Source: an uncultured Gammaproteobacteria bacterium
GTDB lineage: Bacteria > Patescibacteriota > Patescibacteriia > Magasanikbacterales > GWA2-37-8
Assembly: GCA_964634875.1 (NCBI GenBank)
Contig: CAZWKA010000003.1
Coordinates: 85,928-149,927, forward strand
DNA: 64,000 nucleotides
Direction: 5' to 3'
Shown: positions 5,129 through 58,118 of the stretch, piece by piece
Layout of the letters: every line of letters begins with the position of its first letter
How positions within the stretch are numbered: position 1 is the stretch's first letter
The notes under the pieces: model-generated
The model's database searches: none
Seen by the model: only the letters and a program-made list of their open reading frames with translations
Told to the model about the DNA's origin: nothing
Position numbers and translations under genes: made by a program

Positions 5129-5226
5129 AAAAGTTTAAAGTGTAAAGCAAAAAGTATAAAATAGTTGTGTCGCCTTGGCGACCCGGTCATTTTTAGCTTT
5201 TAGCTTTTAATTTTTCGTTTGTTCAG

Positions 5227-5619
5227 TGGAAGTGGCGAGAGTTGAACTCGCGTCCAAAAACACGGGGCTAGAGCGTCTACGGTATGTAGTCCTCTTGTTG
5301 GTGTCCTGTCTACCTGAAAAGAGAACCAAAAGGCAAACAGTAAGCCGAAATCAATTTCACGTTTTTATCCAATCAGCGGTGGTAAAAACGCTACTCCTGG
5401 TGTTTTTACACCAGAACAAAGTTACCAGGTGTGGCCTTGTCTGATGGGCACGGCCGTTAGGCCATTGCCGGCGCAAAGGTGCTGAAAGCGTTAGCTAGAG
5501 CAGATTTGGCTTTGGAGAATAAGTTGGCACTTATTGAGTTGCCCCAACTATTAACGAGACCTGAGGCCGTCTCGATACGCGACTCTATCAGCTTGTCTCT
5601 GTCGAAACCCAGCACTCCC
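5227..5619 (-). ncRNA. ssrA: tmRNA (SsrA)
   Basis: Minus-strand 3' end GGACGCGAGTTCAACTCTCGCCACTTCCA is near-identical to the E. coli tmRNA 3' tRNA-like end. The 5' end GGGAGTGCTGGGTTTCGACAG resembles the E. coli 5' GGGGCUGAUUCUGGAUUCGACGG. The acceptor pairs GGGAGTG/CACTTCC. Located directly downstream of smpB. Confidence 0.7.
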
Positions 5620-10743: not shown

Positions 10744-10747
10744 ATTT

Positions 10748-13033: not shown

Positions 13034-13131
13034 AGCTGGCAGGATGGTATGCTCGTTTGTTTGGTAAAAAAACTTCTGAAAAACCAAAAAGAGTGCTATA
13101 CTAATGGATAATTCATTTTTTACCTTTTTTT

Positions 13132-13479
13132 ATGGCCCAGATTACCCCTTTTTCGGATGACTCCTTACCAGAATTTGAGGAGATGGCGATTTCCCAGGGA
13201 CGAAAGCTGGGCTTTTTGATTGCCAAGTCCGAACTTTTGAGTGATGAAGAAAAAGAAGCCTTGCTCACGGTGCTCCCTGAGATGTCGCCAGAGCAGCTGG
13301 ATGAATTAACTGTCACCCTTGAAGCTCAGCATGTACTTCAACAAAAAGACCCGAATGATGCTGTGGTCAAAGAGGGTTTGGTTCAAGCTGAAGACGAGTA
13401 TAACCAGGCGATGGATAAGGCAAGTGGTGATACGCTTAAGAAGCTTGATCAGCTGCAGAAAAAGGTAAGCGGTCGTTAG
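13132..13479 (+). CDS. Small acidic helical protein (115 aa)
   Basis: Glu/Asp-rich. Lies between giant ORFs, which suggests a chaperone or adaptor-like role. Confidence 0.45.
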   Translation: MAQITPFSDDSLPEFEEMAISQGRKLGFLIAKSELLSDEEKEALLTVLPEMSPEQLDELTVTLEAQHVLQQKDPNDAVVKEGLVQAEDEYNQAMDKASGDTLKKLDQLQKKVSGR

Positions 13480-13489
13480 AATATAACCT

Positions 13490-13711
13490 ATGCTTGATAG
13501 CGATGCAATGAAACCGTCCACGTCTGAACCAGAGAAAGGACTTACTCCAGAGGAGCAGGTTGCTTTGTACTCGGAGCAGATTGCTGAACTTGAGACGCTC
13601 CACCGCCAAGGTTTGGTTTTGAAGCACCAGTTGCTTGAGGCGGTTTCAAATGAAAAACGGGCAGCTCTTCTCCAGTCTATTAAGCAATCTATTCCTAAGA
13701 AAAATAACTAA
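13490..13711 (+). CDS. Small helical protein (73 aa)
   Basis: Tightly packed between neighbouring genes in the operon. Confidence 0.4.
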   Translation: MLDSDAMKPSTSEPEKGLTPEEQVALYSEQIAELETLHRQGLVLKHQLLEAVSNEKRAALLQSIKQSIPKKNN

Positions 13712-13717
13712 CAGCGT

Positions 13718-16700
13718 ATGCCTAAAAAAGCGCCTGGTAAGGAGGGTGGTGGAGAAGTTTCGCTGCAGGATAAGGTTTTGCGTTTAGTTACCCGAGAACA
13801 TAGTAATCCTGACCGTAAAGTGCTTGAAACAGCGCTCCATTTGCGTGAGAAAGTTAGGTTTCTCTCGGCTGAGCAGGCTCGGTTAGTCGATGAGTTGACT
13901 GCGTTGTATGATTTGCTTACCGATGTGGTTGGTGAAGACCAGCAAGAGAAACGAAAAGAACTTTTGTTGCAGGCAGAGAAGTATTTCGTTGCTGCACGCG
14001 AACATATCATGAAACAATTTCCAACACCAAAAGATGCCCAGAAGTTTACCGGTGTTGAAAAACCGGCTGAACAATTAACGGCTGCGGGAGCCGAAACCTG
14101 GCTCCAGGGAGAAGAAGCAAAATTGGCGCCATACAATCTTTCAAAGCGGCAGCGCAAAGATTTGGCCGCGGGTAAAAAGCAATTTGAAGTTTTGGTTGGA
14201 AAATTAAAGACTGGTCAGATTACCGAACATGAAATTTTGACGACCTATCCAAAAGCACAAAGAGAGGTGGTTGAGACCGTCCGCCTTATTCTAAAGAAAC
14301 AGCAAGACCAATCACCAGCCTTTGCTGCCCCGGAACCGGAAGAGTCCGAAGTGCAAGAAGAGGCTCCTCGACAAAAACGGGTTGTAGAACAAATTGCTTC
14401 GCCTGATGTTGACCCTCAAGTTGAGGAGGAGTCGGTTGAAACTGGAGCTGAAAATGAAACCGATGAACAAATTTTTGACCGGATCAAAGCCGAGATTGAA
14501 AGCGGTGCTTTTACACTTGAAAAAGCCAAAGCATCTATTGAATTGGCTCGGACTGTCGGCGGACAAACTATTCGTGATCCTCGAAATGAAGAAGACACTT
14601 TGGCGACAGGTTGTTATTGGTACGCTTTTGGGGAAAATGGTTTGCCTCCGGATGCAGCGAAAGCACTGGCGCGTACCATGCGTGATCACTTTACCAAAGG
14701 AAAGGCCGAACAAAAAGATCGGCAAGGTGAAGCACGGTTTAATGAAATAAAAGCCCGTTTTCTAGTTGATAACCCGGCAGATATTTTGGCAGTGGCCGAC
14801 GAAATGATTGAAAAGGCAAAATCAACCCCCAAAGGACTCATGTCGACATTCAAAGCGACTTCGCCGGAGCAACAGGTATCGGTTGGTGCTTTTTGGTTTT
14901 TTAAGATGTACAAAACACCCTATAAAGGGATAGATGCAGATGCTAAAGTTTTTGCTAGCCAAGCAGCGGCTCATTTCAAAGATAAGGAGCCAAAAGTCGA
15001 AAAATCAAAAGAAGTACCCTTGGTTCGCAATAAACCAGGTTTTAATGACGCTGCAGCTCAAAAAAATGCAGAAGAAGCGGAGTATAAGGCTCAGCACCCG
15101 GAACATCCCGCACCAGCTGAGTCGCACGAAACTGAGAGTGCGGGGGCGCACGTCTTTTCTTTAGCTGATGCTATTGAAGTATTCAATGCGCTTTCTGCAG
15201 AGCAGCAAAAAAAAGTTAAAACCAGACCACGAAGAAGTCCTGAAGAACCGTTTCAAGATCCAGCGTTTACTGTGGGTGAGGCTCGTTACTGGAAAGCGTT
15301 CTTGGACAATCCAGATGTTGAACAGGCTGAAGCGGAGGCCCTAGGTAAACAAGCTGAACTTGAGTTTAGATCAATGATGGATAAGTGCATTCGCCAGCTT
15401 ATTTCTAAAGATCCAGAACAGGCTGTTTCAACTGCTCAGGATATAATTGAGCAGGCGGAGCAGCTGGAGGACAGGGAAATTTTTCCTGAAAAGGGAAGTG
15501 AAGCGGACTCGGATGCAAATATCGTTGCTCTTGGTGCTTTTTTGGTGGCTAAACATTTTGGCGGTCGAAGTCGGTCTGAAGCTAATCAGTTTGCAGAGCA
15601 CGCAAAGGATATTTTTATGACGGCTGAAGCGGCGCTGGAAGAAGCAGTTCCAGACGTAGCACCGACTCCTCGAGAGAGCGCTGAACCGGCACCGAAAGTT
15701 GAGTCGGTATCTCAGCGGTCAGTTGAAAATGAAATGAAGGTGGTTAGTCATATTGATCCTATTTTTAAAGCTTTAGATGAGGGCGAAGATTTACAATTTA
15801 CTTTTGTGGAAATAAGTCGGGCCGCTGAAAACCTGCTTAGCTCACCAAATTTTCAGGATGGAAGTTTTGATCTCGCAAAAAAAACAAACACTGAGAAAAT
15901 TGTCAGAGCCCGTTATTTGTACGCCCTTAATGTTGAGAATCTGGGAGAGCGGAAAGCTGCCCAGCTGGCCAGCGAAACCAGAAAAGCGTGCCAGCGGATT
16001 GAAAAGCTGCAAAAACCGGTTGAAAAAGTACTGATTGTTCCGGATGAAGATGAGGAGGACGATGCTGACCGCCGAGCGGCTAGTATCGCTGCGCGCAGAG
16101 GGGATGTAGTAAGTACGCACTATACGAGTGGGGTGGCGAATGAAATGCGTCGGCCGGCAAAGGATCGGACTGATATGCCGGAAGTTGAACAGCTGTCTCC
16201 GGAAGAAAAGAATAAAGCGAGTCTCTTGAGTAATCTCAAACGAACGTATTACCGGCCATTGAGTGAAAATATTGAAACATTTACATTCAAAAAAATAACT
16301 GGCAAAGAAGCTGATGAGCGGGACGCATCCCGCTTACTCCGCCGCTTGTATGATGCGCAAGTTGCGCCTTTGGTTGCTGCTTTTGAAGCGGCTGATCCAA
16401 AGAATGCCGATGAACTGGCTCGTCTGGAACGGGAAATTAAGAGCGCGGTCAAAGACCTTGATCTTAAAAGACAAGTCGCTGAGAATGCGGAATCGCTCGA
16501 CTCTATATCGATTGATTGGTTGCGTGATGGTGTTAAGAAATTAGCTGAGCAAGAATACTCTGAAAAAATCACTCTCTATAATAGTTTAGTACGTGACAAG
16601 AATGAACTTATGACTGAGTTCTCCCTCTTGCGTGATTCGTTCCCAGAAATTGACCAAGGGTTAACTACGTTTGGCCGTGAGCTGGCGAAGGCTGACGCGA

Positions 16701-16849
16701 TATATAGAAAGTCCCGGCAACCAGGTATCAAAGGAACTGAGGCAGCCAAGGTTTTTCAAGAAGCTTTTGCTGAGGCTGTCCAACAAGCTGCTAAAGAACG
16801 TAATAGCGTCCTCTTTACGCTTGAGAAGATAACCGGGGTAGCCCTTTAG
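13718..16849 (+). CDS. Giant Glu/Lys/Ala-rich alpha-helical protein (1043 aa)
   Basis: Uninterrupted 3.1 kb ORF. Highly charged. No TM helix or signal peptide. Confidence 0.65.
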   Translation: MPKKAPGKEGGGEVSLQDKVLRLVTREHSNPDRKVLETALHLREKVRFLSAEQARLVDELTALYDLLTDVVGEDQQEKRKELLLQAEKYFVAAREHIMKQFPTPKDAQKFTGVEKPAEQLTAAGAETWLQGEEAKLAPYNLSKRQRKDLAAGKKQFEVLVGKLKTGQITEHEILTTYPKAQREVVETVRLILKKQQDQSPAFAAPEPEESEVQEEAPRQKRVVEQIASPDVDPQVEEESVETGAENETDEQIFDRIKAEIESGAFTLEKAKASIELARTVGGQTIRDPRNEEDTLATGCYWYAFGENGLPPDAAKALARTMRDHFTKGKAEQKDRQGEARFNEIKARFLVDNPADILAVADEMIEKAKSTPKGLMSTFKATSPEQQVSVGAFWFFKMYKTPYKGIDADAKVFASQAAAHFKDKEPKVEKSKEVPLVRNKPGFNDAAAQKNAEEAEYKAQHPEHPAPAESHETESAGAHVFSLADAIEVFNALSAEQQKKVKTRPRRSPEEPFQDPAFTVGEARYWKAFLDNPDVEQAEAEALGKQAELEFRSMMDKCIRQLISKDPEQAVSTAQDIIEQAEQLEDREIFPEKGSEADSDANIVALGAFLVAKHFGGRSRSEANQFAEHAKDIFMTAEAALEEAVPDVAPTPRESAEPAPKVESVSQRSVENEMKVVSHIDPIFKALDEGEDLQFTFVEISRAAENLLSSPNFQDGSFDLAKKTNTEKIVRARYLYALNVENLGERKAAQLASETRKACQRIEKLQKPVEKVLIVPDEDEEDDADRRAASIAARRGDVVSTHYTSGVANEMRRPAKDRTDMPEVEQLSPEEKNKASLLSNLKRTYYRPLSENIETFTFKKITGKEADERDASRLLRRLYDAQVAPLVAAFEAADPKNADELARLEREIKSAVKDLDLKRQVAENAESLDSISIDWLRDGVKKLAEQEYSEKITLYNSLVRDKNELMTEFSLLRDSFPEIDQGLTTFGRELAKADAIYRKSRQPGIKGTEAAKVFQEAFAEAVQQAAKERNSVLFTLEKITGVAL

Positions 16850-16867
16850 TTTTTAATGCCTGCTTAG

Positions 16868-17050
16868 ATGTCTATGTCAAAAAATGTATCCCAGCCAATA
16901 AAAGCAAAGGCTCAGGCGCTTGGCAGAAAAGTGAGCCAATTAAAAAATAAGATTGCGGAGACGCGTGAAGACGGGGAAGCCCTCAAGCGGCAGCTAACTG
17001 TAGCACTCGACCGGGCGAAAGTGAGCAAAATTTTAAAAAAAATTAAGTAG
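16868..17050 (+). CDS. Small basic coiled-coil protein (60 aa)
   Basis: Operon position. Reported only because of its context. Confidence 0.35.
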   Translation: MSMSKNVSQPIKAKAQALGRKVSQLKNKIAETREDGEALKRQLTVALDRAKVSKILKKIK

Positions 17051-17075
17051 CCTTTAGTTTTATTACTACGTTTTT

Positions 17076-20000
17076 ATGGCGAGCCCTGAAAAAAAATTGA
17101 TCACCCCTGAGTTCAAACTGCATGTGCAGCTGGTGAAAGAGCTGAATGAAGGTGACCGTAGCGACCAGCACCTGCAGGCCCTGTTTGAATTGAATGAGCG
17201 TTTTAAGTCAGTGAAGGATGTCATGAAAGACCTGCGCAGGCTCTTGAAAGAGTGGGGTGCGATCCATGACCAAAAAGAGGGGCTTCCCCCACGTGAACTC
17301 AACCAGGCAATTGCTGAGTATGCCAAAAAAGTAGTGGCTTTAGAAAACGAGTTGCTCGAGCTTGAGGCGGAAGAAAAAGAGGTTGAGGAGGCGTGGTGGA
17401 AGGAGCAGCAGGCTACAATTAAGTCTTTGGTAGCACAAAAAGATCCGCGTCATACCGCCAAAGACATCCAAAAAAGACGGGATTTAAAAAATGCTACATT
17501 TGAGGCGTTGGCTTTGTTTAAAAAGAATCAAGAGGGACAAGCGAGCCAGTCCGACCTTCACGAGTACGGGCGTTTCAAACGCCAGGTTATTGATTCGCTG
17601 GCGGAATTAGCTCCGCGGGTCCAGACAGACGAACTAGACGAGGCGGTTGATGCCCGTGATACTCAACCTAATCCGGTTGTCCCCGATGTGGCTTCCGAGC
17701 CAAAACCAGTCGATGCCCGTGATACTGCTCCACACACACCAGTTATGGATGATGAACCAGATGCCCGGGACACTGCGCCGCATACTCCAGTGTTTAATGA
17801 CACTAATCCTGATGCTCGTGACACCGCTCCTCATACGCCGGTTTTTGATGATCCTGATGCCCGTAACACTGCTCCCCACACACCAGTATTTGCCGAACCA
17901 CCAGCGCCGCCAAAGAAAAAAGGTTTTTGGGGTCGGATTAAAGAAGTCTTTTCTAGCAAAGAAGTTCAGAAAAAAGCAGCTAAAACAATTTTGTACGATG
18001 TGCCGATGCGCGCTCTGGGGGCAAAGGCAGTTTTTGATTGGATCGGTGCGTCTCCGCTTGCTGCTGCCCGTGTCGCTGAAATGGTCGGGGGTGAAAAATT
18101 AAAAAATAAAGTTAAGGGGTATGTTGGTGAGGGCAGGGGAGATGTTGCTGCTTACTATAAGGGCGGTCGCGAGGCTGAAGAAGAATTAGAACAACTGCAA
18201 CCTCAGATCGATGAAGTGGTGCTTGCGCTTGGTCGTGACATGAAAGAACGTCGTGCTCAGGACACGGACGCTGAGCTGCGCGTGCAAGCAAAATTAGATA
18301 CTTTGCAACACATGATCGCGGGGGCAAAAAATATCGCTCCGGCCGAGCGCGCTGTTTTGTTTGAATCGCTGACGGATATCGTTACAAGCTACGGTGAAGC
18401 CCAAAAAACTGCCGAAGCTGCTTTGCTCAAAAAAACCCAAGCGCTCCTTGAGCGTCATGTACGTAACCAGGCCAACAAATTGGCTTTGGTTCGTGATGGT
18501 GTTAACGCCATTCTTACTGCAGCTGGTTTACCAATGGTTCGGGCAGTTGCCTACGCTGGTATGAGTGCCTATGAAGCAGTGCGACGGGTAAGTCTTGAGC
18601 GTAAAGGCGGGGCGGCGGGTGAATCTAAAAAAGATGCTGCTAAACGGTATGCCAGTACTGTTGGAACTGCTGCGCGCGAATCGTTTAATGCTTTGCTCTT
18701 CAGAGGCCGCAAAAATGAAGGTTCGGTGGCGCAACGTGGTATTGAAGGTGTGGCTGCGTGGGGTCAGGCTCTGTCTGTCTTTGGTATCAGTGTTCAAGCG
18801 CTTGATGGTCATGCACCAACGAGTAGTGAAGGTTTCCAATCGCTCATTAATGCGATTAAAGAACGAGGTGCCGAAGGCGCACTTGACCAAATGGGTAGCA
18901 ATATTGCCCAGAATGCAGACCGTGTTGCCAATATCCCCGCTACGTTTGCCCGTGGCGTGGGGCATGCGTATGATGCGGGGCACACTGCGGTCGATTATGT
19001 AACTGGTACCTCGCATGATACTTCTCGGCTACTTGATGGTGCGCCAGAATTTTCTTTTAATAATTTTGCTCAAGAAAACCATCTGAGTAAACCAGAAGGA
19101 GATTTTTTGGCCGGTCTGCTTAAATACCCCAGCCTTCGCAATAATCCGGAAGTATTTCAAAATATTCTTAAGCTCTCGGATGCCGGCAACCATAATGGTG
19201 TAGCAGAACGAATACTTGGGGACGTTAAAATGTATACCTTCAAAGCAATGGTGGATGCCGGAGCTGGTAAAGAAGAGTTGGCCGGTTTTGTTCGCGATCA
19301 ACATTTTAGTAGTCGTCATTTGGAACACCTCAAAGGCGTACACCTGGGTTCAAAACCCAGTGCGGAAAAAATTGCTGAAGCGCTCCAGGCAGCGATGGGT
19401 AAGAAGTCAAGCGGCGTTTATGATGTCTTCAAAGCTAAGGCAACAAGTGAGTACCAACATGCCCTTGCCCAGAAACATGGTGACCATTTACGTTTGCGCG
19501 GAAATGATTTGCGTCTGTATGGCTTTGACAAAGATGGTAACCCAATTTTGGGTGGCAAAGGTACGGCAACGCTGCTGCACCGTTCTGGTGGAAGTCATGG
19601 TGTTCTTCAGGCTGGAAAATCCAGCGTGTCGTCTGCTCAGGCGGTTGAAGCGTATGCCAAGCAGCTTGGGTATGCTGATCCAGAAGCATATGAAGTATAT
19701 AAAGATAATGATGCCCTGGACGATGCCGGTGATATGTCACCGCCAGCCAGCTGGAAACTCGCCGGCTCGAGTTCGGCGGCCGAGAGTATACGGCATTTGG
19801 AAGAAATGTTTGCTATGGAAGACCCTCAAGCCTATGCGCTCTATCAAGCGGGTAAAGAGAACGGTGGTCTCGAAGATTTTGATACCTCTACCCTTGTCGC
19901 TAGTCGCACTGACATGGTGCCAAGTTCGTCTGGTTCAGTTACGGCTGAGGCAATGCAACGTGCTCCGGCGGCGGAGGCGTTGCGAACTACTCCTCGTGAA

Positions 20001-20675
20001 ACGGTTGTGGCTGCGTTCCATCCGCAAAAAGAACATGATTGGGGAGTTGATTCAAAAGCAGAAGCTCCGGTTGAAGCCCGTGCTCCTCGTGTTAGTTCCC
20101 GCGCCCTAGAAACTGCAGCTGGTTCAGAAGCTGCCCAGGGTGGATGGGGGATGGATGCGCAAACAGCGGAAAGGAATTTGAGTAGAATGGAAGCGGCTCT
20201 CGAGCGTTCGATTAATGGAGTTGACCTTACCGGCGCCGGTTTTTCCAAGAATCGTATTATGGATGCTTTTGCGGCTTGGCGTGACCGGGTGAGCGGTGCG
20301 ATTGAAGATGGAAAGCCGCTTGATGCGGGAGTTAAGGCCAGTGCCACCGAAGCACTGCAACGGTTTAATGTTTCTAGTAAAGATACTGAAGCTCTTGGGT
20401 TTGCGATTTTTGATGCTGATCCTAAGCTGCATAGTGTCGCACGAGAAATTAGTTTGATTATGGCACCTAAAGATCCTAATGTGGGTTTTGCGGCTAATGG
20501 TAGCCGCGGGGTCTGTGTCTTTGACCGGTCAGCCGGTACTTGGCAGTTTTCGACCTATTCAGACAAGCTTTTCTCAATGAGCGGCGGAAGATTGGTTAAA
20601 GCTGACCTCCAGGGCAATATAGAAAAGGTCTATGAAGACCCCCAAGCCTTTTTAGAAGTTCAGCGAGAAGAGTAA
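17076..20675 (+). CDS. Giant protein (1199 aa) with tandem DARDTAPHTPVF repeats
   Basis: 3.6 kb ORF containing four to five peptide repeats and a Pro-rich spacer. Confidence 0.65.
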   Translation: MASPEKKLITPEFKLHVQLVKELNEGDRSDQHLQALFELNERFKSVKDVMKDLRRLLKEWGAIHDQKEGLPPRELNQAIAEYAKKVVALENELLELEAEEKEVEEAWWKEQQATIKSLVAQKDPRHTAKDIQKRRDLKNATFEALALFKKNQEGQASQSDLHEYGRFKRQVIDSLAELAPRVQTDELDEAVDARDTQPNPVVPDVASEPKPVDARDTAPHTPVMDDEPDARDTAPHTPVFNDTNPDARDTAPHTPVFDDPDARNTAPHTPVFAEPPAPPKKKGFWGRIKEVFSSKEVQKKAAKTILYDVPMRALGAKAVFDWIGASPLAAARVAEMVGGEKLKNKVKGYVGEGRGDVAAYYKGGREAEEELEQLQPQIDEVVLALGRDMKERRAQDTDAELRVQAKLDTLQHMIAGAKNIAPAERAVLFESLTDIVTSYGEAQKTAEAALLKKTQALLERHVRNQANKLALVRDGVNAILTAAGLPMVRAVAYAGMSAYEAVRRVSLERKGGAAGESKKDAAKRYASTVGTAARESFNALLFRGRKNEGSVAQRGIEGVAAWGQALSVFGISVQALDGHAPTSSEGFQSLINAIKERGAEGALDQMGSNIAQNADRVANIPATFARGVGHAYDAGHTAVDYVTGTSHDTSRLLDGAPEFSFNNFAQENHLSKPEGDFLAGLLKYPSLRNNPEVFQNILKLSDAGNHNGVAERILGDVKMYTFKAMVDAGAGKEELAGFVRDQHFSSRHLEHLKGVHLGSKPSAEKIAEALQAAMGKKSSGVYDVFKAKATSEYQHALAQKHGDHLRLRGNDLRLYGFDKDGNPILGGKGTATLLHRSGGSHGVLQAGKSSVSSAQAVEAYAKQLGYADPEAYEVYKDNDALDDAGDMSPPASWKLAGSSSAAESIRHLEEMFAMEDPQAYALYQAGKENGGLEDFDTSTLVASRTDMVPSSSGSVTAEAMQRAPAAEALRTTPRETVVAAFHPQKEHDWGVDSKAEAPVEARAPRVSSRALETAAGSEAAQGGWGMDAQTAERNLSRMEAALERSINGVDLTGAGFSKNRIMDAFAAWRDRVSGAIEDGKPLDAGVKASATEALQRFNVSSKDTEALGFAIFDADPKLHSVAREISLIMAPKDPNVGFAANGSRGVCVFDRSAGTWQFSTYSDKLFSMSGGRLVKADLQGNIEKVYEDPQAFLEVQREE
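17649..17895 (+). repeat. In-frame tandem repeat (about 39-45 nt unit) encoding DARDTAPHTPV(F/M)DD
   Basis: Repeated GATGCCCGTGA(T/C)ACTGCTCC(A/T)CA(C/T)ACACCAGT units are visible in the sequence. Confidence 0.7.
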
Positions 20676-20723
20676 GATTGATGGTTTTTATCGAATTAGC
20701 GCTCTTGCCCTCAGTATATATAA

Positions 20724-20762
20724 AAAACACCTTACCACCCTCGTGGAAGGTGTTTTTATTTT
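20724..20762. terminator. Bidirectional intrinsic terminator closing the long operon
   Basis: AAAAACACCTT-loop-AAGGTGTTTTT with flanking A and T tracts. Confidence 0.7.
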
Positions 20763-20853
20763 ATTTAGATCTGGTAAAGAGTTTGGGTGGGGTTGTGAAG
20801 TAGCAAAAAAAGCCTTATTTTAGCCAAAAAACTGTTTTTACGCGCTGCAGCCC

Positions 20854-20882
20854 TTGACAAAACCCAAAAAGTATGCTATAGT
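20854..20882 (+). promoter_or_regulatory. Near-consensus sigma70 promoter facing the GC-rich island
   Basis: TTGACA, 17 nt spacer, TATAGT. Confidence 0.55.
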
Positions 20883-20997
20883 ATGTCGTTACCTCAAAAA
20901 GAGACTAGTATACGTAAGAGAGACGTATCCTAGACACCGGCCCAAATTGATGCTATATCCTCTCTACACTTAGGGAGTTTTTTTAAAACCAACGCGT

Positions 20998-21165
20998 TCT
21001 TTACAATATCACACTATTCTACACTGCTTCTGAAAGAAGACAGGACATCTTTCTCTTGAATCTACTATAGATTGAAGAAAGAAACGCCCTGTCTTCGGAC
21101 AGCAAGCACCAACTTGATCCCCACGCCGGGGATTGCTACGGATCACTGAGACAAAGGAGCCGCCC
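20998..21165 (+). promoter_or_regulatory. Structured leader 1: TCTTTACAA box, then a long imperfect hairpin plus an ATCCCC/GGGGAT hairpin, then an SD
   Basis: AAGACAGGACAT...CCCTGTCTT hairpin. CTGTC-TTCG-GACAG tetraloop. CCCCACGCCGGGG hairpin. AGGAG SD 7 nt before the ATG. Confidence 0.5.
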
Positions 21166-21612
21166 ATGAACGCTTCCAAGATTGCCCTCGGTTTCGCCGC
21201 CCTCGCCATCGCCCTCAGCACCGGCTGCAGCGGCACCCCGTTCTCCGGCAGCAGCGGCATCGACGCCGGCCGCAGCCTCAGCCGGAGCACGACGACGGAG
21301 ATCGACACCACCACCACCGTCGTCGACGGTCCCGCCTTCACCAAGGCGGACAGGGCGCTCCTCGCCCGGCTGCGCACCACGGTCTACGGTGGGAAGAAGA
21401 CGGTCGGTCTCGTCCGCCGCGTCGACTACCTCGAGTACAGGACCGGGCACAAGGCCGACCTCGACGCCCTGGCCGAGATGGACGCGCGCACCAAGCTCGC
21501 CCAGATCGAGGCCCGCCGCGCCACCAAGGCCCCCAAGCTCGCCCAGAACGACGGCGGCACGGTCAACGTGCTCGTCCGCACCCCCGCGGACGCCACGGTC
21601 GAGAAGCGGTAG
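21166..21612 (+). CDS. Lipoprotein (148 aa), GC-rich
   Basis: Start MNASKIALGFAALAIALSTGCSG (lipobox) with a good SD. GC3-rich codons. The ORF-track start at 21133 is upstream of the SD. Confidence 0.6.
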   Translation: MNASKIALGFAALAIALSTGCSGTPFSGSSGIDAGRSLSRSTTTEIDTTTTVVDGPAFTKADRALLARLRTTVYGGKKTVGLVRRVDYLEYRTGHKADLDALAEMDARTKLAQIEARRATKAPKLAQNDGGTVNVLVRTPADATVEKR

Positions 21613-21793
21613 CTACGGCTGCCGTTGGTATAGGATAGTGTGAAGGTCGCCCGCGCATATTGGCGCGGGGGATCGAGCGACCGGGAGTCATACGTAGAGG
21701 TTGGCGATATAATCGCCGACCGCTCGAGACTCCTGGTCGACCTCGCTTTTTCTTCAGCATTACGATGATGCAGAAAAAGTGAGTGAAGTTGCT

Positions 21794-21924
21794 CTTTACA
21801 AACGCAAGACAGGACATTTTTAACTTCAATATCGTTGAAGTAAGAAACGCCCTGTCTTGCGAAAAACAGATTGGTCCCCACGCAGGGACTGTAACGGCTC
21901 ACTGACAGAATGAAGGAGTCCATC
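21794..21924 (+). promoter_or_regulatory. Structured leader 2, paralogous to leader 1
   Basis: Same TCTTTACAA box. AAGACAGGACAT...CCCTGTCTT stems with a different but still complementary inner hairpin. GTCCC/GGGAC hairpin. CACTGA and AAGGAG elements conserved. Confidence 0.5.
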
Positions 21925-22578
21925 ATGAAGGCCATCCGCACGCTCTCCCTCATCGCCGCCGCTCTCGTCCTCACCGCTGGCATCGCCCGCGCGGACGATG
22001 CGGGCATGAAGACCACGGTCATCAAGTGCACGAAGGCGGAGATCGCCGCCGGGACCTGCACGATCGACGTGACCCTGCCCACCCCGGCGCCCCCCGTCGT
22101 CGTGGCTCCCTCCGAGCCGCCCCCCCCGCCCCCCCCCCCCCCCCCCGGCGGGGGCCCCCCCCCGCCCCTCGGCGCCCCCCCCCCCCCCGCGCACCACCCC
22201 CCCCCGAGCCGCCCCCGCCGCCCCTCGCCCCGCCCCCGGTCGTCGTCACCCCCGAGCCGATCGTCGCCCCGCCCCGCCTCGCGAACAGCCCCGCCCTGCA
22301 GAAGGCCTTCACCCAGACGGCTGAGGAGCACAAGGGCCTCAGCCGCCAGGCCAAGCTCGGGATCGGCTTCGGTGTCGGCGGCGCGGTCCTCGCTGGTGTC
22401 GCGGTCGGCCTCATCGTGTGGCACGTCACCAACGACGGCCTCTACCAGATCAAGCCGCCGATCACCGTGGCGCCCAACGCCCTGACGAACCTCGGCAGCG
22501 GCCCCCTCCGGCTCTCCGGCGCGTCCGTCACCCCGATCCCCGGCGGTGCGGTTCTCTCCGCGGCTCTCGTCTTCTAGA
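21925..22578 (+). CDS. Signal-peptide, proline-rich, C-terminally membrane-anchored protein. The reading frame shifts within the poly-C tracts (frameshifted or phase-variable).
   Basis: Frame 1 (from 21925) encodes a signal peptide, a domain, then poly-Pro. A different frame (22026 track) carries poly-Pro, PPVVVTPEPIV, a TM helix (LGIGFGVGGAVLAGVAVGLIVW), and ends at 22578. The two frames are joined only through the C12-C17 homopolymers. Confidence 0.5.
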
Positions 22579-22694
22579 CCCCCTTCCTCACATGAGGAGC
22601 AGCTCCCGGTTCCTACCGGTCGAAGCTCGCTCCTCGCCCTTTCAACAACGATGAAACTTTCGTGGTTGTTGAAAGGGTTGAAAGACCCACAAGT

Positions 22695-22805
22695 TCTTTA
22701 CAACAGGTTCGGGAAATTTTAACTGCCTAAGTACTATAGGCAAGTGGAATGTCCCGAACCGACAATGTCCCAGCCTAAGAACTGGGCCAAAACCTGGAGA
22801 AGTGC
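22695..22805 (+). promoter_or_regulatory. Structured leader 3 (TCTTTACAA box plus GTTCGGGA...TCCCGAAC hairpin plus CCCAG/CTGGG hairpin)
   Basis: Shares the box and two-hairpin architecture with leaders 1 and 2. Contains AATGTCCC twice. Confidence 0.45.
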
Positions 22806-23795
22806 ATGAACACGATGACTCGCGGTTTGCTTGTCCTTTGTCTCGCCCTCGCCGCCGCGTGCGGCCCCGACCGCACCCTCTGCGCCCCGGGCGCCGAGGC
22901 GATCCTCGCCGTCGGCAACAACACCACCGATTCCCACGGCTTCCTCTGCGGCTGCGACAGCACCTCCGAGTGCGTCGCGGGCCAGCGGTGCGGGTGGTCC
23001 TCCGACTACAAGCGCAACGTCTGCTCCGACAACCTGCTCCAGTCCCTGCCCCCCGGGAGCAATCCCTGCAGCCTGAACAATGGCGGCTGCCGGTCGGACG
23101 AGACCTGCGTCTACAACACCGCCCTGAACTCGGTGTCCTGCACGCCGCCGCCCAAGCCCCAGTGCAACATCACCTGCGGCGCGGGCCAGAAGGCGGCCAC
23201 GAACGCCAACGGGGGCTGCTTCTGCGCCCCGACCTGCGAGGGCGTGGTGTGCGGCGCGGGCCAGACCTGCCAGCTCAACTTCGACCGCGGCCTGTGCGTG
23301 AGCAACTGCCGCGCCCCCTACGTCGAGTGCGGCGGATCCTGTGTCCTGACCCAGCTCAACAACAGCCACTGCGGCGGCTGCGGGAACATCTGCGGCCCCG
23401 GCTCGACCTGCCAGGGCGGCACCTGCCAGCAGATCCCGGCCCCCCAGGATGTGACCTGCCATGGGATGCGGTTCACGCTGGCCCAGGGCACGAACACGAA
23501 CACCACGGCGCGCGAGTGCCGCGGCTACGACATCCGCGGCGACCAGGCCTGGTCCATCGCCCCGCCGACCCCCGGCACCGAGACCAGCGCTCCCAACGGC
23601 ATCTGCGCCGCGACCTGCCTCTCGCAGGCCGGCACCGAGACGGTCGTCCCGGCCAACGGCAGCGCGATCTGGATCCCCGGTGGCAACCAGGACGTCCCGC
23701 GCTACACGCGCCCCGGCTGCCCGCGCCTCCGCTGGCACCCGGTCGGCGACCCCTTCGGCGCCGGCTTCGCGTGGGACGCCTTCTGCGAGCAGTAG
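22806..23795 (+). CDS. Cysteine-rich secreted lipoprotein with EGF-like and CxxGQxC repeats
   Basis: Signal peptide plus lipobox LAAAC. Repeated C-x-x-G-(A/Q)-G-Q-x-C units and a CSLNNGGCRSDETC EGF-like module. GC3-rich. The antisense 334 aa ORF is judged spurious. Confidence 0.65.
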   Translation: MNTMTRGLLVLCLALAAACGPDRTLCAPGAEAILAVGNNTTDSHGFLCGCDSTSECVAGQRCGWSSDYKRNVCSDNLLQSLPPGSNPCSLNNGGCRSDETCVYNTALNSVSCTPPPKPQCNITCGAGQKAATNANGGCFCAPTCEGVVCGAGQTCQLNFDRGLCVSNCRAPYVECGGSCVLTQLNNSHCGGCGNICGPGSTCQGGTCQQIPAPQDVTCHGMRFTLAQGTNTNTTARECRGYDIRGDQAWSIAPPTPGTETSAPNGICAATCLSQAGTETVVPANGSAIWIPGGNQDVPRYTRPGCPRLRWHPVGDPFGAGFAWDAFCEQ

Positions 23796-23833
23796 GCTCG
23801 ACCTAGCTCTCGGCTTCTAGCCGATTGAGCAAG

Positions 23834-23863
23834 GGGCGGGCACACTTCACCGTGTGCCCGCCC
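23834..23863 (+). terminator. GC-rich hairpin (12 bp perfect stem) ending the island
   Basis: GGGCGGGCACAC-ttcacc-GTGTGCCCGCCC. No T-tract follows. Confidence 0.45.
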
Positions 23864-24052
23864 GACCCCTTATCCTGATCATGAACAAAACGTTCGTGGC
23901 AAGAATAAGAGGAAAGAAAATAAAAAAATAATCTTTCAACAATTACTTCTGACGCAGAAATAGTTGTTGGCAGATTACGTACTTCGGTACTAATCCACCA
24001 ACCCAAAAATTCCGCCTATCTCTCTGGGTGGATTTTTGTTTATGGACCAGTA

Positions 24053-24084
24053 CTAAGCAAAGTAGGCAGAGTAAGCAGATTAAG
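24053..24084. repeat. Short palindromic repeat family, copy A (left arm flanking the 4HB gene)
   Basis: AGCAAAGTAGGCAGAGTAAGCAG. Inverted partner at 24463-24500. Related copies at 29411-29480 and 41377-41410. Confidence 0.7.
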
Positions 24085-24463
24085 TTTTGTTTTGTGGAAG
24101 ATAGCTTCTTTGTACTTGGATCCAGCGTGTGAGGAGTTTTCCGACTTCCTCGCAAAGTTGTAGGGCAGAATCGTGCTCTGCTTTTTTTATATATTCCAGA
24201 TCTTTGGCTAAAAGAAAGTGGTATTTTGTCTCTTCAAGAGATGCGTCAGCAATATTATAAAAATGAAGACTGTCGCGTAAATTTCTTCTTCTAAAACCCT
24301 CAACTATATTAGTAGGTACCGAAGCTGCAGACCGCCGCACTTGGCTAGTCAATCCAAATAATTCTGTTTTTGGGAAATCGCTAGTTAGTTTATAAACTAA
24401 AAGAACCAAGGTATGTGCTTTCTGCCAAACTTGTAAATCCCGAAAAATTTTGATTGTCGCCAT
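24080..24463 (-). CDS. Four-helix-bundle protein (TIGR02436 family; 23S-rRNA intervening-sequence protein / DGR Avd-like)
   Basis: Family signature ...LTSDFPKTELFGLTSQVRRSAASVPTNIVEGF... within a 127 aa protein. Confidence 0.8.
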   Translation of the reverse strand: MATIKIFRDLQVWQKAHTLVLLVYKLTSDFPKTELFGLTSQVRRSAASVPTNIVEGFRRRNLRDSLHFYNIADASLEETKYHFLLAKDLEYIKKAEHDSALQLCEEVGKLLTRWIQVQRSYLPQNKT

Positions 24464-24500
24464 ACTTACTCTGCTTAGAACTTACTCTGCTTACTTTGCT
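24463..24500. repeat. Short palindromic repeat family, copy A' (right arm, inverted; tandem CTTACTCTGCTTAG units)
   Basis: Its reverse complement is AGCAAAGTAAGCAGAGTAAG, matching the left arm with one mismatch. Confidence 0.7.
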
Positions 24501-25941
24501 GGCTAGCCGCCCAATACCCCCACACGGCCCAGAACCACCAGATGACTGGGGTGTGGTGGAGCATGTTGTCGGACAAGCTCATGATGAGATAGATAAGGAT
24601 GCTCAGAATGAACGAAAAATGGATCCAGCGTCCACTGAGGAGTGTTTTAAATTCGTGGTACATGAGGGTGACGAAGATGCAGAGATACAAGAAAAGCCCG
24701 ATCAGGCCGCTTTCAAAAGCGACTTTGAGATAGTCGTTGTGGGCTTCGGAAGTGTTGTCGAATAAATTTTCGACCCCTTTGTTATAGTCCCAGACTTTGC
24801 TAAATGAGCCATAGCCATAGCCAAGGTAGGGCCGGGCCTGGAAGAGGGGAATAATTTTATTAGCAATATCTGCGCGCCATTTGATGGAATCGGCATCTTC
24901 GTTGCGGCCGGTTAGGCGGCCAATGACACTATTTGATTGCAGGTTGATATTGTAGGTGTGGCCGACCCAGTTATTGATTGGGTAAAAGAGCGTATAAAAA
25001 AGTATGGCGCCACCCACCAGGTATAGGAATACTTTTTCGTAATAAAAAAAACAAATTGCCAGAATAAAAGCAGCCAGGCCGATCCAAGCTACGCGCGTAT
25101 AGGTAAAAACAATAATAAGCGTCAGGAAGGCAAAAGCAAGCGGTGTGTACGTATGCCAGTGTTCGGTGGTGCGCCCAGAGAACCGGCGGAAAAATTGGGC
25201 CACAGGATGGAGGAACTGGTCGACGAGGTTCCTTTTTTCAAAGCGTAGCTGGAACCGATAGGTATAATCCGCCAGTACAATGAACAAGACGACAGCGAAA
25301 GTGGCGAGGAGGTTCGGGTGGGCAAACGTGCCAAAAATACGGTTGGTTACGCCGTCGATGGTCATGCCGCCACCAGTAAGTAATTGGTAAAGAGCTAAGA
25401 GCAGTGGAAAACCGGCGGCAATAATCAGGCTTAGGTAAAAGGGCCAGACAAATTTGTCGCCTTCTTTGCGGCGCAGAATATTGCAGACGCCGAAAAGGGC
25501 AAAGAGATTGGCGGCTTTCAGTGTTTCGGTAACAGTAGAAGAAGGATCGAAACTATAAAGAAAGCTAAAACCGCACCAGGCAATGAAAATAAGCCAGGGG
25601 TAGCGGGCAGGAATCTGGTTCCAATAGCTCCGGTTCTTAATAAAAAAATAAACTGCCCAGCCCGCTAGAAGGAGTGAGATGGCTGCGTTGAGGTTAAAGG
25701 TGACGCTACCGAGGGTAAAGAAGGCATAGTCCCTCAGGCCGTCAATCGTAGGCCGAATCGCTAAGAACAAGAGGATGGCTCGCTCACCAAAAAGCTTGTG
25801 AAGGACAATGAGGGCAATGAGGAGAAACGCAAAGACATCGCCGCCGCTGGTTGGGTTAAAAACCGTAAAAGCAATCAGGCTAATGATGAGCCAGGCCCAC
25901 AAAGCAAAGGAATCACGCATAGTTGAGCGAAAAAACGCCAA
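24475..25941 (-). CDS. O-antigen ligase/polymerase-family (Wzy_C/WaaL-like) membrane protein
   Basis: At least ten TM helices. SEAHNDYLKVAFESGLIGL motif. A large periplasmic loop. Confidence 0.7.
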   Translation of the reverse strand: MAFFRSTMRDSFALWAWLIISLIAFTVFNPTSGGDVFAFLLIALIVLHKLFGERAILLFLAIRPTIDGLRDYAFFTLGSVTFNLNAAISLLLAGWAVYFFIKNRSYWNQIPARYPWLIFIAWCGFSFLYSFDPSSTVTETLKAANLFALFGVCNILRRKEGDKFVWPFYLSLIIAAGFPLLLALYQLLTGGGMTIDGVTNRIFGTFAHPNLLATFAVVLFIVLADYTYRFQLRFEKRNLVDQFLHPVAQFFRRFSGRTTEHWHTYTPLAFAFLTLIIVFTYTRVAWIGLAAFILAICFFYYEKVFLYLVGGAILFYTLFYPINNWVGHTYNINLQSNSVIGRLTGRNEDADSIKWRADIANKIIPLFQARPYLGYGYGSFSKVWDYNKGVENLFDNTSEAHNDYLKVAFESGLIGLFLYLCIFVTLMYHEFKTLLSGRWIHFSFILSILIYLIMSLSDNMLHHTPVIWWFWAVWGYWAASQQSKQSKF

Positions 25942-26034
25942 GAACAGTTGACAAAATCGTTCTTTTATGGTATACTCAGGCGTTGTTTAGTGATTTAAGT
26001 ATAGCACATTTTGTGGTATACTACAGCTATCTTT

Positions 26035-28083
26035 ATGAAGCGTTTCAATCAACGTACGGCCAAAAAAGCTCCAGTCCCAAAAAGTACCCTCACCTGGTAC
26101 CGAGCTCTTGCAGGTGTAGCCATCGGCCTTTCGGCCCTGGTTTTTTGTTTTCAGGGAACATCAACGTCGGCTCCGCTTTTGGCTAATTATTACCTGGGCA
26201 CGCTTCCGCAAGATGATGCGACAATCAGCCTCTTGGCTCGTAACGATGTTTTGGTTTTGAGCAGCGAACAAGGAGTGATTCGTAAGGATGTTATCCAGAA
26301 AATTAAGCAAAAAAATCCGAAAATTGTTTTACTGGCTTATGTGATCAGTAAGAGTTACGATCAGAATTGGAAGAATTATCCGGCAAATACTGTCTATAAT
26401 AATTTTAGGGTTGACGATAGTTGCTGGCTCAAAGACGCCCAAGGAAATATTTTGTCAGATTGGCCGGGGCAGAAAAGTTTAAACATGAAAGAGCAGTGCA
26501 CTGATTATTTGATCCAGTATACCAAAGACAATATTTTAACCCAAGGGCATTGGGATGGTATATTTTGGGATGTTGTGAATGGAAATATCGCCTGGACAAA
26601 TAAAGGCAATATTGATTTGAATGCTGATGGTCAGCCGGATAAAGCGAGTGAAGCTGATGCCGAATGGCTCCGCCGCACGAATTATTTGCTTAGTCAGAGT
26701 CGCAAGCAGTTGCCGGTAAAATATTTTGTTATCAACGGAACTTCGATCCCGGGCGTCCAGCCACATGTGAACGGACGTATGTTTGAAAATTATCCGACAC
26801 CCTGGGAAGCAAATGGGTCGTGGGGTGGGCTTATGACTACGCTTGCCGCCAACCAGAAAACAAATGTTGCACCACAGCTGTATATTTTTAATGCCAATAC
26901 AAATAATACCGGTAACAAGAATGATTTCCGCAATATGCGGTTTGGCCTTACGAGCAGTCTCTTGACCAATAATACCTATTTTAGTTTTGACCATGGCACC
27001 AACGACCATAGTCAGACCTGGCAGTACGATGAATACAATGTAAAACTTGGTGACCCGGTTGCTCCGGCTGTTTCGCGTAATAATGAAACGCAATTCAAAG
27101 AAACTGATGTGTGGAAACGAGAGTACGCCAACGGCATTACGCTCGTAAACCCGACCGGGCAATCACAGACTGTTGATCTGGGCGCAGAGTATGAAAAAAT
27201 TATTGGTACACAGGATAAAAAAGTGAATGACGGGGCAATTACCGACCGGGTAACGCTTGGAGCAAAAGATGGGATTGTAATGATGAAAACGCTGGATGGT
27301 ATTAGTAGTATCAAGAATACCGCTTTCAAGAATGGCTCATTCCTACGGTTTTTTGACCTTAAGGGCAATCGTGCGCGTAACGGTTTTTTTGCCTTTGATG
27401 ATGACTACCAGGGTAGTGCGACGATTTATCAGGGCGATTTGGATGGCGACGGTGCAGAAGAAAAAGTAGTTGCTACCGGGGCAAAACTTGAAATTTTTAA
27501 TAGTAGCGGTGAACGTTGGTTCAACGATTATCCGTACGGTGCTAATTTTAAAGGTACGATCCAAATTACAGTTGGTAAGTTTTTTGGTGCGAGTACAAAC
27601 CAAATCGTTGTTGCCCCATCAAAAGGTGGTAAAGTTTTGGTATATAATTACCATGGTAAACTTCTAAAAAATGATTTCTATCCGCTTGGTACAAAATACC
27701 AAAATGGTTTTACCGTAGCCGTTGGTAGTCCGGCCGCTAAAGATGCTGGTGAGTTGGTCGTGGGGGTAGGCAAAGGCAGCCCGACCGAACTTTTGGTCTA
27801 TACGACCAGCTACACTAAGGTGGCTAAGCGTTTTTTCCCCTATGATAAAAAATATACCGGCGGCGTAACGCTGGCTGTCGGCGACATTAACAGCGATGGT
27901 GTGAACGAAATCGTAACGTTGCCGCTCAAAGGCACTGCTACGGCTCGGGTGTACACGACTGATGGCAAGAAACTATCTGAATTCAGGATTCCTTCCCTTT
28001 TTGGCTCAGTGCCAGTTGATATTACCATTGCGGATATTAACTTTGATGGCAAGCAGGAAATTGCGGTGATGAATGGACAATAG
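26035..28083 (+). CDS. Secreted/anchored GH114-like TIM-barrel glycoside-hydrolase-like domain protein with C-terminal FG-GAP repeats
   Basis: N-terminal TM/signal segment. GHWDGIFWDVV (GH114 GFDGVFLD-like). Several D-x-D/N-G-D-G FG-GAP repeats (DLDGDGAEE, DINSDGVNE, DINFDGKQE). Confidence 0.55.
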   Translation: MKRFNQRTAKKAPVPKSTLTWYRALAGVAIGLSALVFCFQGTSTSAPLLANYYLGTLPQDDATISLLARNDVLVLSSEQGVIRKDVIQKIKQKNPKIVLLAYVISKSYDQNWKNYPANTVYNNFRVDDSCWLKDAQGNILSDWPGQKSLNMKEQCTDYLIQYTKDNILTQGHWDGIFWDVVNGNIAWTNKGNIDLNADGQPDKASEADAEWLRRTNYLLSQSRKQLPVKYFVINGTSIPGVQPHVNGRMFENYPTPWEANGSWGGLMTTLAANQKTNVAPQLYIFNANTNNTGNKNDFRNMRFGLTSSLLTNNTYFSFDHGTNDHSQTWQYDEYNVKLGDPVAPAVSRNNETQFKETDVWKREYANGITLVNPTGQSQTVDLGAEYEKIIGTQDKKVNDGAITDRVTLGAKDGIVMMKTLDGISSIKNTAFKNGSFLRFFDLKGNRARNGFFAFDDDYQGSATIYQGDLDGDGAEEKVVATGAKLEIFNSSGERWFNDYPYGANFKGTIQITVGKFFGASTNQIVVAPSKGGKVLVYNYHGKLLKNDFYPLGTKYQNGFTVAVGSPAAKDAGELVVGVGKGSPTELLVYTTSYTKVAKRFFPYDKKYTGGVTLAVGDINSDGVNEIVTLPLKGTATARVYTTDGKKLSEFRIPSLFGSVPVDITIADINFDGKQEIAVMNGQ

Positions 28084-58115: not shown

Positions 58116-58118
58116 AGT

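What the first reader, a model, noticed from the sequence alone, without database searches (positions are those of the whole stretch)
22120..22230. Long poly-C homopolymers (C12-C17) split the proline-rich gene across two frames; phase variation or assembly error
The signal-peptide-containing frame (21925...) and the frame carrying the TM anchor and stop (...22578) are both open. They are connected only through a run of C-tracts that encode poly-Pro in either frame. Tracts of at least 9 identical bases are classic slipped-strand-mispairing switches that turn surface proteins ON and OFF. They are also classic homopolymer sequencing errors. A PPVVV(A/T)PxEP motif sits on both sides of the tract.
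Basis: seen in the sequence. Interest (0 to 1): 0.55.

Follow-up and report, generated by a model that had tools for sequence, protein, structure and literature searches.

The report
Poly-C proline stalk breaks envelope gene
A small bacterial membrane-protein gene carries a proline-rich stretch written as five long runs of C, and the assembly is one base out of frame there; this is most likely an unreliable or unstable run length rather than two genes, and the gene sits in an unusually GC-rich three-gene island.

Summary
Five C runs (C8, C18, C9, C14, C9) lie at 22120-22205, and they are the only C or G runs of 8 or more in the 64 kb. The signal-peptide frame (ATG 21925) and the membrane-anchor frame (stop 22575-22577) meet only inside them. 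Adding one C, or removing two, in any of the five runs gives one ORF of 217 or 216 aa.

Two homologues (P0004, 158 aa, intact; a partial copy in L002) have head, linker, anchor and tail in one frame and no C run longer than 5. So this is one gene, and the poly-proline segment is a lineage-specific expansion of its linker.

An independent short-read assembly of a near-identical strain stops 24 nt before the first run. It agrees with the window at all 17 ordinary homopolymers it overlaps.

I read the frame break as an unreliable or heterogeneous run length in a very mutable tract, not a pseudogene or a conserved evolved switch. Without reads, technical error and real phase variation cannot be separated.

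More surprising is the context. The gene lies in a three-gene envelope island with 94-96% G/C at third codon positions, inside a 46% GC chromosome. The island has conserved AT-rich spacers and no homologues elsewhere.

The parts
21792..21861 (+). Upstream control region of gene 2. It holds CTCTTTACAA (a -35-like TTTACA at 21795-21800), followed by a 27-nt-arm inverted repeat (21803-21829 / 21835-21861).
   Evidence: repeat I2. The same layout precedes gene 1 (TTCTTTACAA 20997-21006, repeat I1 21036-21096) and gene 3 (TTCTTTACAA 22694-22703, repeat I7 22706-22760). The exact 10-mer occurs 3 times in the window against 0.21 expected. Promoter function is inferred.
21914..21918 (+). Ribosome-binding site AGGAG, 6 nt before ATG 21925.
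   Evidence: Read directly from the sequence.
21925..22119 (+). Gene 2, N-terminal part in the frame of 21925. It holds the signal peptide (21925-21993, ARA|DD), a two-cysteine head (Cys35 and Cys45 at 22027 and 22057) and the first PPVVVAPSEP motif (22090-22119).
   Evidence: It aligns with the N-termini of P0004 and the L002 copy. GC3 is 0.94.
22120..22205 (+). Poly-proline linker written as five C runs (C8, C18, C9, C14, C9). The frame break lies somewhere in this 86-nt stretch, which is 80% C.
   Evidence: All three frames are open here. All four canonical G-quadruplex motifs of the window lie on the minus strand at 22073-22231.
22197..22205 (+). The last C9 run, the simplest place for the frame change if it is a single event.
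   Evidence: Up to 22196 the signal-peptide frame has no A/T-ending codons, while the anchor frame has three (CCT 22167, GCA 22191, CCA 22194). After 22206 only the anchor frame has none. This is weak evidence (P about 0.15).
22206..22577 (+). Gene 2, C-terminal part in the frame of the stop codon. It holds EPPPPPLAPPP, the second motif PPVVVTPEP (22233-22259), the transmembrane segment (22362-22421), a conserved tail (ALTNLGSGPLRLSG...) and the stop at 22575-22577.
   Evidence: A phmmer search of 1.84 billion representatives hits P0004 at E = 6.9e-10. Alignment A2. GC3 is 0.94.
22578..22805 (+). Spacer between genes 2 and 3. It holds nested hairpins, including CCCTTTCAACAACGATGAAA / TTTCGTGGTTGTTGAAAGGG (22637-22677), then TTCTTTACAA and a hairpin.
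   Evidence: The spacer has 84% mean column identity across four loci (three distinct sequences), although the flanking proteins are only 30-59% identical.
21166..21612 (+). Gene 1 of the island: a 148-aa predicted lipoprotein (lipobox ALSTGC).
   Evidence: GC3 0.96. No family match.
22806..23795 (+). Gene 3 of the island: a 329-aa cysteine-rich predicted lipoprotein (LAAAC).
   Evidence: P0001, 58% identity, full length. (alignment A1 lists 24 invariant Cys columns). One search gives a weak match to MXAN_6577-like cysteine-rich proteins (E = 6.9e-7, below the cut-off). GC3 is 0.96.

Best explanation
Positions 21925-22577 are one gene. It encodes a small envelope protein of about 217 aa: a cleavable signal peptide, a short two-cysteine head, a proline-rich linker, one transmembrane helix, and a tail of about 50 aa.

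In this lineage the linker has grown by about 45 residues relative to its relatives. The growth probably came from duplication of a PPVVVxPEP unit plus slippage of CCC codons. Because this gene uses only G/C-ending codons, the poly-Pro is written as C runs of up to 18.

The reading frame depends on the summed length of five very slippage-prone runs. The assembly is one base short, or two long, of the in-frame sum. I think the organism makes the intact anchored protein, and the break reflects a run length that cannot be trusted. Either it is a plain consensus miscall, or it is a consensus of modal run lengths drawn from a population that is mixed at these runs.

Shown here: one gene, the restoring edits, the lineage-specific tract, and the failure of an independent assembly at this spot. 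Inferred: a high slippage rate in vivo, the membrane topology, and that the in-frame form is the functional one.
For: 1. P0004 (158 aa, intact) and the L002 copy carry signal peptide end, Cys head, linker, transmembrane helix and tail in one frame. A search with the window's C-terminal 113 aa hits P0004 at E = 6.9e-10.
2. Adding 1 C or removing 2 in any run gives 217 or 216 aa with signal peptide and anchor.
3. Both halves keep the island's extreme codon bias, GC3 0.94, and there is no other lesion.
4. Orthologues have no C run longer than 5, so the tract is a recent expansion of the linker. CCC is over-represented in it, P = 0.006.
5. The Logan assembly of SRR12762304 matches the window at 12775-22096 with 5 mismatches and no indels, and ends 24 nt before the first run. 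Its next contig that I found begins at 23693 and is identical over 3.7 kb.
6. All 17 ordinary homopolymers of 7 or more in the overlaps agree between the two assemblies. The window is therefore accurate except where no platform is reliable.
7. The region is 92% GC over 100 nt and holds the window's only G-quadruplex motifs.
8. The literature treats isolated frame breaks whose two sides hit one homologue as mostly sequencing errors (PMC3711429).
Against: No reads were available, so technical error was not shown. Codon endings place the simplest single break in the last C9 run, and accurate platforms usually call a C9 correctly. That raises the chance that the frameshift is real.

The Logan contig also breaks at 23693, which is not a homopolymer. 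Its break at 22096 may therefore reflect generally poor coverage of the GC-rich island rather than the runs themselves.

All three frames are open across such C-rich sequence, so the absence of stop codons says little about whether the gene is intact.
Confidence: 0.55

Rival explanations
1. This is a genuine phase-variable locus. Slipped-strand mispairing in the C runs switches the population between an anchored form and two exported forms without an anchor (186 aa and about 132 aa). The assembly caught a real, dominant out-of-frame state.
For: Runs of C9 to C18 exceed the lengths of proven switches. The product is an envelope protein with a signal peptide and a transmembrane helix. Frame changes alter only the C-terminus, as in the 'C-terminal phase variation' described for Helicobacter canadensis (PMC2823697). 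The simplest break point is a C9 run, which is normally sequenced correctly. The break in the independent assembly could be due to mixed run lengths.
Against: The tract is absent from all three orthologous copies. There is no read or strain evidence of length variation. Five runs in one frame look like an expanding linker rather than a tuned switch. No other candidate tract exists in the 64 kb.
Confidence: 0.3
2. This is a fixed frameshift. The gene is a recent pseudogene that lost its anchor and tail.
For: The assembled sequence is out of frame. Gene 2 evolves fast, at 37-42% identity between lineages. The product as assembled lacks the anchor.
Against: There is no second lesion. The downstream frame keeps GC3 at 0.94 and the conserved tail motif. 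A tract this unstable would revert quickly. The promoter-like and terminator-like elements are intact and conserved.
Confidence: 0.1
3. The DNA is truly out of frame and is decoded by recoding. RNA polymerase slips on the long run (or the ribosome shifts frame), so that part of the mRNA or protein is in frame.
For: Homopolymers of 8 or more promote transcriptional realignment (PMC1088944 and PMC5009743; PMC3711429). A C18 run would probably give mixed transcripts.
Against: Programmed sites are conserved among orthologues, and this one is not. The known bacterial cases use A or T runs. No stimulatory structure was found.
Confidence: 0.05

Closest known systems
Homopolymer (poly-G/poly-C) contingency loci of Neisseria, Campylobacter, Helicobacter and Haemophilus, including C-terminal phase variation in Helicobacter canadensis (PMC2823697)
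   Same: A G/C homopolymer lies inside the coding region of an envelope protein. A change of one base alters the frame. Because the tract lies mid-gene, the C-terminus changes rather than the protein being lost.
   Different: Here there are five runs of up to 18 nt that together encode a poly-proline linker. They are not conserved in orthologues. No length variation has been observed. The organism is an uncultured environmental bacterium, and no other such tract occurs in the window.
Homopolymer-length errors in assemblies (isolated frame breaks whose two sides hit one homologue; PMC3711429)
   Same: The break lies inside a homopolymer. Both sides match a single homologous protein. An independent assembly fails at the same place.
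   Different: Outside the island the window's homopolymers are correct. The simplest break point is a C9 run rather than the C18.
Proline-rich spacers of bitopic envelope proteins (for example the TonB Pro-rich region); comparison from general knowledge, not tested here
   Same: A run of prolines joins a membrane anchor to an extracytoplasmic part. Its length varies between relatives.
   Different: There is no sequence relationship (Pfam and NCBIfam gave nothing). Here the stretch is nearly pure Pro, written as homopolymer DNA.
Borrelia vls antigenic-variation locus (PMC3585125)
   Same: A surface-protein locus whose codon use departs strongly from its genome. It has strand-biased G/C runs capable of forming G-quadruplexes, and this is conserved across lineages. 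This parallels the island's GC3 of 0.92-0.98 in 46% GC genomes and the cluster of G-quadruplex motifs.
   Different: No silent cassettes or paralogues were found. There is no evidence of gene conversion. The G runs are on the template strand and are confined to one linker.

Membership tests
Slipped-strand-mispairing phase-variable (contingency) gene | A hypermutable simple repeat lies inside the coding region or promoter. | tested here: met
   C8, C18, C9, C14 and C9 at 22120-22205.
Slipped-strand-mispairing phase-variable (contingency) gene | A change in the number of repeat units switches the reading frame or the product. | tested here: met
   In silico, adding 1 or removing 2 gives 217 or 216 aa with the anchor. 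Removing 1 or adding 2 gives 132-133 aa. As assembled, the product is 186 aa without the anchor.
Slipped-strand-mispairing phase-variable (contingency) gene | Tract length is observed to vary within a population or between strains, reversibly. | not testable with these tools
   No reads were available. The only near-identical assembly (L001) ends 24 nt before the tract. No protein containing this C-terminus other than P0004 exists in the 1.84-billion-representative library.
Slipped-strand-mispairing phase-variable (contingency) gene | The repeat tract is kept at the same site in orthologues or related strains. | tested here: not met
   The copies in L002, L003 and L004 have no C run longer than 5 and no poly-Pro. 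Only three copies were available.
Slipped-strand-mispairing phase-variable (contingency) gene | The product is exposed on the cell surface. | tested here: inconclusive
   A signal peptide with an AxA site and one transmembrane helix are predicted from hydropathy. The structure model was of low confidence, pLDDT 56. Topology was not shown.
Assembly or sequencing homopolymer error | The frame break lies within a homopolymer, and both sides align to one homologous protein. | tested here: met
Assembly or sequencing homopolymer error | Reads support a different length from the consensus. | not testable with these tools
   There was no access to reads. Indirect evidence: an independent short-read assembly breaks just before the tract.
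Programmed transcriptional realignment or ribosomal frameshift | The slippery site is conserved among orthologues, which all share the frame transition. | tested here: not met
   Orthologues are single ORFs without the tract.
Known protein families (Pfam, NCBIfam, PHROGs) | A match above the family's curated threshold. | tested here: not met
   The only hit is DUF6112 at E = 0.017 and 15.4 bits, against a cut-off of 25, over the transmembrane helix. NCBIfam and PHROGs gave nothing meaningful.

The most novel reading that the evidence does not exclude
The poly-C tract may be only one symptom of an unusual locus. Three fast-evolving envelope genes have no homologues elsewhere. Something actively keeps G/C at more than 92% of their third codon positions in about 46% GC genomes, while the AT-rich spacers between them are held nearly constant.

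The most novel reading is a dedicated surface-protein expression site that undergoes a GC-biased process, such as targeted hypermutation or gene conversion, or is under selection on DNA or RNA structure. This would be loosely like the Borrelia vls locus, with the G-quadruplex-forming poly-C/poly-G stalk as its most unstable point.
Probability: 0.12. Interest if true: 0.75.

Novelty: new member of a known kind. Interest (0 to 1): 0.38.

Why it matters
For annotation, the two ORFs should be merged into one envelope-protein gene and flagged as 'frame uncertain in homopolymer'.

Biologically, a reading frame that depends on five C runs of up to 18 nt would be among the most unstable coding tracts described in bacteria. 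If the run lengths prove real and mixed, this would be stochastic switching between anchored and released forms of a surface protein in an uncultured environmental lineage, outside the pathogens where such switches are known.

The surrounding GC3-saturated island has synonymous sites at saturation and spacers that are still conserved. It is a clean natural case for asking what can hold codon composition far from the genome's equilibrium.

Tried and rejected
1. A word-indexed search with the joined 218-aa protein found nothing. A profile without the poly-Pro found only P0004.
2. Scans with the gene-3 alignment found no relatives in GTDB species genomes, JGI metagenomes or IMG/VR.
3. Scans with the conserved spacer hairpin found nothing. 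The first pattern fixed a 5-nt loop and would have missed the 4-nt-loop variants. The JGI scan did not recover L003's own contig, so that sample is not in the collection.
4. Exact look-ups of gene 1, gene 3 and both gene-2 ORFs found them absent from the protein collection. Gene callers chose wrong-strand ORFs in the GC-rich DNA (and the gene list). No contig crossing the tract could be found.
5. A chimeric-assembly explanation for the GC-rich island is rejected. Independent contigs cross both junctions between island and host DNA, and L003 and L004 show the same layout.
6. Recent horizontal transfer from a high-GC donor is not supported. No donor homologues exist, the position next to the bAvd-like and Wzy genes is conserved, the spacers are AT-rich and conserved, and synonymous sites are saturated.
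7. There are no paralogues or silent cassettes in the window.
8. Rfam gave no match in 20650-24500, even at E up to 1.
9. The tract has no special hairpin as single-stranded DNA, z = -0.5.
10. The AlphaFold model of P0004 was too poor for a fold search, pLDDT 56.
11. The organism could not be named. A sequence identical to the window's BipA is recorded in NCBI on a 155-kb contig, and the sample accessions appear in no paper.

Full report
**The observation.** The 86 nt at 22120-22205 contain five C runs: C8, C18, C9, C14 and C9. No other C or G run of 8 or more exists in the 64 kb; the remaining runs are A8 or T8. The stretch is 80% C, and the surrounding 100-nt window is 92% GC.

One frame starts at ATG 21925, six bases after an AGGAG. 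It encodes a typical signal peptide, MKAIRTLSLIAAALVLTAGIARA|DD, and stays open to 22485. The frame that ends at stop 22575-22577 is open from 22026 and contains the only other strongly hydrophobic segment (22362-22421). The two PPVVV motifs are at 22090-22119 (PPVVVAPSEP) and 22233-22259 (PPVVVTPEP).

Adding one C or removing two in any of the five runs gives a single ORF of 217 or 216 aa with signal peptide and anchor. Removing one or adding two gives 132-133 aa. As assembled, the product is 186 aa with an out-of-frame Arg/Ser/Pro tail and no anchor.

**One gene or two.** A full HMMER scan of 1.84 billion representative proteins with the C-terminal 113 aa found one true relative, P0004 (158 aa, E = 6.9e-10). 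P0004 has a signal peptide, a two-cysteine head, a short Pro/Val linker (VVEPVTAAPVVEPV), a transmembrane helix, and the same tail (…LTTLGNGSLRLTGFGIAP…) in a single frame.

A second relative, cut off at its 5' end, lies upstream of a gene-3 homologue on contig L002. It also reads head, linker, helix and tail in one frame. The three sequences align end to end (A2). So 21925-22577 is one gene.

Neither relative has a C run longer than 5 or a poly-Pro stretch. The roughly 45-residue proline segment is therefore a lineage-specific expansion of the linker, bracketed by two copies of the linker motif.

Proline in this gene is coded only by CCC or CCG, so long C runs partly follow from coding poly-Pro. 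About 8% of random synonymous recodings reach 18 or more. CCC is nevertheless over-used in the tract, 17 of 20 codons against 30 of 54 elsewhere (P = 0.006). That fits growth by slippage.

**How far the assembled lengths can be trusted.** An independent assembly (Logan, SRR12762304) contains contig L001. It equals window 12775-22096 with five substitutions and no indels, and it ends 24 nt before the first run. A second contig from the same run, L005, equals 23693-27406 exactly. All 17 homopolymers of 7 or more in these overlaps agree. The window is therefore accurate in ordinary sequence, while the GC-rich island, and the tract in particular, is hard to assemble from short reads.

The minus strand of 22073-22231 carries the only four canonical G-quadruplex motifs in the window. 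From general knowledge, such sequence stalls polymerases and lowers coverage.

The frame depends on the sum of five unstable runs. A consensus of the commonest length of each run need not match any real haplotype. Codon endings give a weak pointer to where the break is. Up to 22196 the signal-peptide frame has no A/T-ending codons, and the anchor frame has three. After 22206 only the anchor frame has none (P about 0.15). The simplest single event is therefore C9 to C10 (or C7) at 22197-22205. This slightly favours a real frameshift, because a C9 is usually called correctly.

**Interpretation.** I consider it most likely (0.55) that the organism has an intact gene and that the break reflects an untrustworthy or mixed run length. 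True phase variation comes second (0.3): the features 'repeat in coding region' and 'frame switches product' are met, 'conserved tract' is not met, and 'observed length variation' could not be tested. A fixed pseudogene (0.1) and recoding by transcriptional slippage (0.05) are less likely. There is no second lesion, the downstream frame keeps the island's codon bias and the conserved tail motif, and programmed sites are normally conserved (PMC3711429, PMC1088944).

If switching is real, it would resemble the 'C-terminal phase variation' of Helicobacter canadensis (PMC2823697), toggling between anchored and released forms. The protein's function is unknown. Pfam, NCBIfam and PHROGs give nothing above threshold, and a single-sequence structure model was poor: a helix at 75-109 and a C-terminal hairpin, pLDDT 56.

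**Context: the more unusual finding.** The window is a bacterial chromosome carrying SufB/SufS, BipA, GpsA, MurB, two Mur ligases, an MraY-like transferase, a PBP and tmRNA. A sequence identical to the window's BipA is recorded in NCBI on a 155-kb contig.

The window is about 46% GC, but 21130-23800 is 60-77% GC. Three genes lie there: a 148-aa lipoprotein, gene 2, and a 329-aa cysteine-rich lipoprotein. Their GC3 is 0.94-0.96, against 0.30-0.59 in neighbouring genes. The spacers between them are only 41-51% GC. Each gene is preceded by (T/C)TCTTTACAA and a long hairpin.

The same layout occurs in L002, and in L003 and L004, which are near-identical copies of one island from two samples. There GC3 is 0.92-0.98. 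In L003 the island lies next to the same bAvd-like gene as in the window, and that gene is 69% identical.

The island proteins are only 30-59% identical between lineages. Their four-fold sites are at saturation (for example 0.64 same base against 0.59 expected), yet about 90-97% of those sites are G or C. The gene 2-gene 3 spacer has 84% mean column identity. No homologues of genes 2 or 3 exist outside these islands in the protein libraries searched.

A chimeric assembly is excluded. Recent transfer from a high-GC donor is not supported. I cannot explain what keeps the G/C-ending codons. The nearest analogy is the atypical, G-run-rich codon use of the Borrelia vls locus (PMC3585125), but no silent copies were found here.

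**Verdict.** The finding itself is a real sequence feature of a known kind: a homopolymer-borne frame break in an envelope gene. Its biological reality can only be settled with reads, so interest is moderate to low. The surrounding island deserves its own follow-up.

Noticed in passing
window 21130-23800 (also L002, L003, L004): A three-gene envelope island has GC3 of 0.94-0.96 inside a 46% GC chromosome. Spacers are 41-51% GC. The proteins have no homologues elsewhere. Between lineages the synonymous sites are saturated but remain G/C, and the position next to the bAvd-like and Wzy genes is conserved.
   Followed up: partly
window 20888-20985 (promoter 20854-20882, terminator 20960-20977 plus a T run); L004 34-117: A candidate small RNA of about 95 nt lies just upstream of the island. 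It has a near-consensus promoter (TTGACA, 17 nt, TG-n-TATAGT) and an intrinsic terminator. L004 has the conserved promoter, a hairpin whose stem differs but whose AAGAGAG loop is conserved, and a terminator. There is no Rfam match.
   Followed up: partly
window 22578-22805, 21613-21924, 20990-21165; L002 431-656; L003 1595-1827: The spacers between island genes are more conserved than the genes themselves. They hold nested hairpins after the stop codon (including CCTTTCAACAAC…GTGGTTGTTGAAAGG), with some compensatory changes, then a TTCTTTACAA box and a long hairpin overlapping the likely -10 and 5' UTR.
   Followed up: partly
window 24080-24463 (-): A gene for a 23S rRNA intervening-sequence / bAvd-like four-helix protein (PF05635, E = 5e-38) lies directly next to the island, downstream of a Wzy_C gene. 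The same neighbour is seen in L003. No reverse transcriptase was seen among the ORFs scanned, and not all ORFs were scanned.
   Followed up: no
window 22073-22231 (- strand): All four canonical G-quadruplex motifs of the 64-kb window lie here, on the template strand of gene 2.
   Followed up: partly
window 1351-3696 and 5226-5619: A replication protein (REP_ORF2-G2P) and a large serine recombinase abut tRNA-Asp (3621-3696), with tmRNA nearby (tag ANLFSKAKSALANAFSTFAPAMA). This is probably a small integrated element.
   Followed up: no
window 56000-59000: A low-GC block (33-35%) lies just after tRNA-Glu (55660-55732). It encodes a 530-aa protein with papain-like peptidase and GNAT domains and two small ORFs. 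This is a second compositional island, of the opposite sign.
   Followed up: no
window 9349-20675: Four consecutive large genes (464, 761, 1043 and 1199 aa) have no Pfam match. The 1199-aa protein contains tandem D-A-R-D-T-A-P-H-T-P-V repeats.
   Followed up: no
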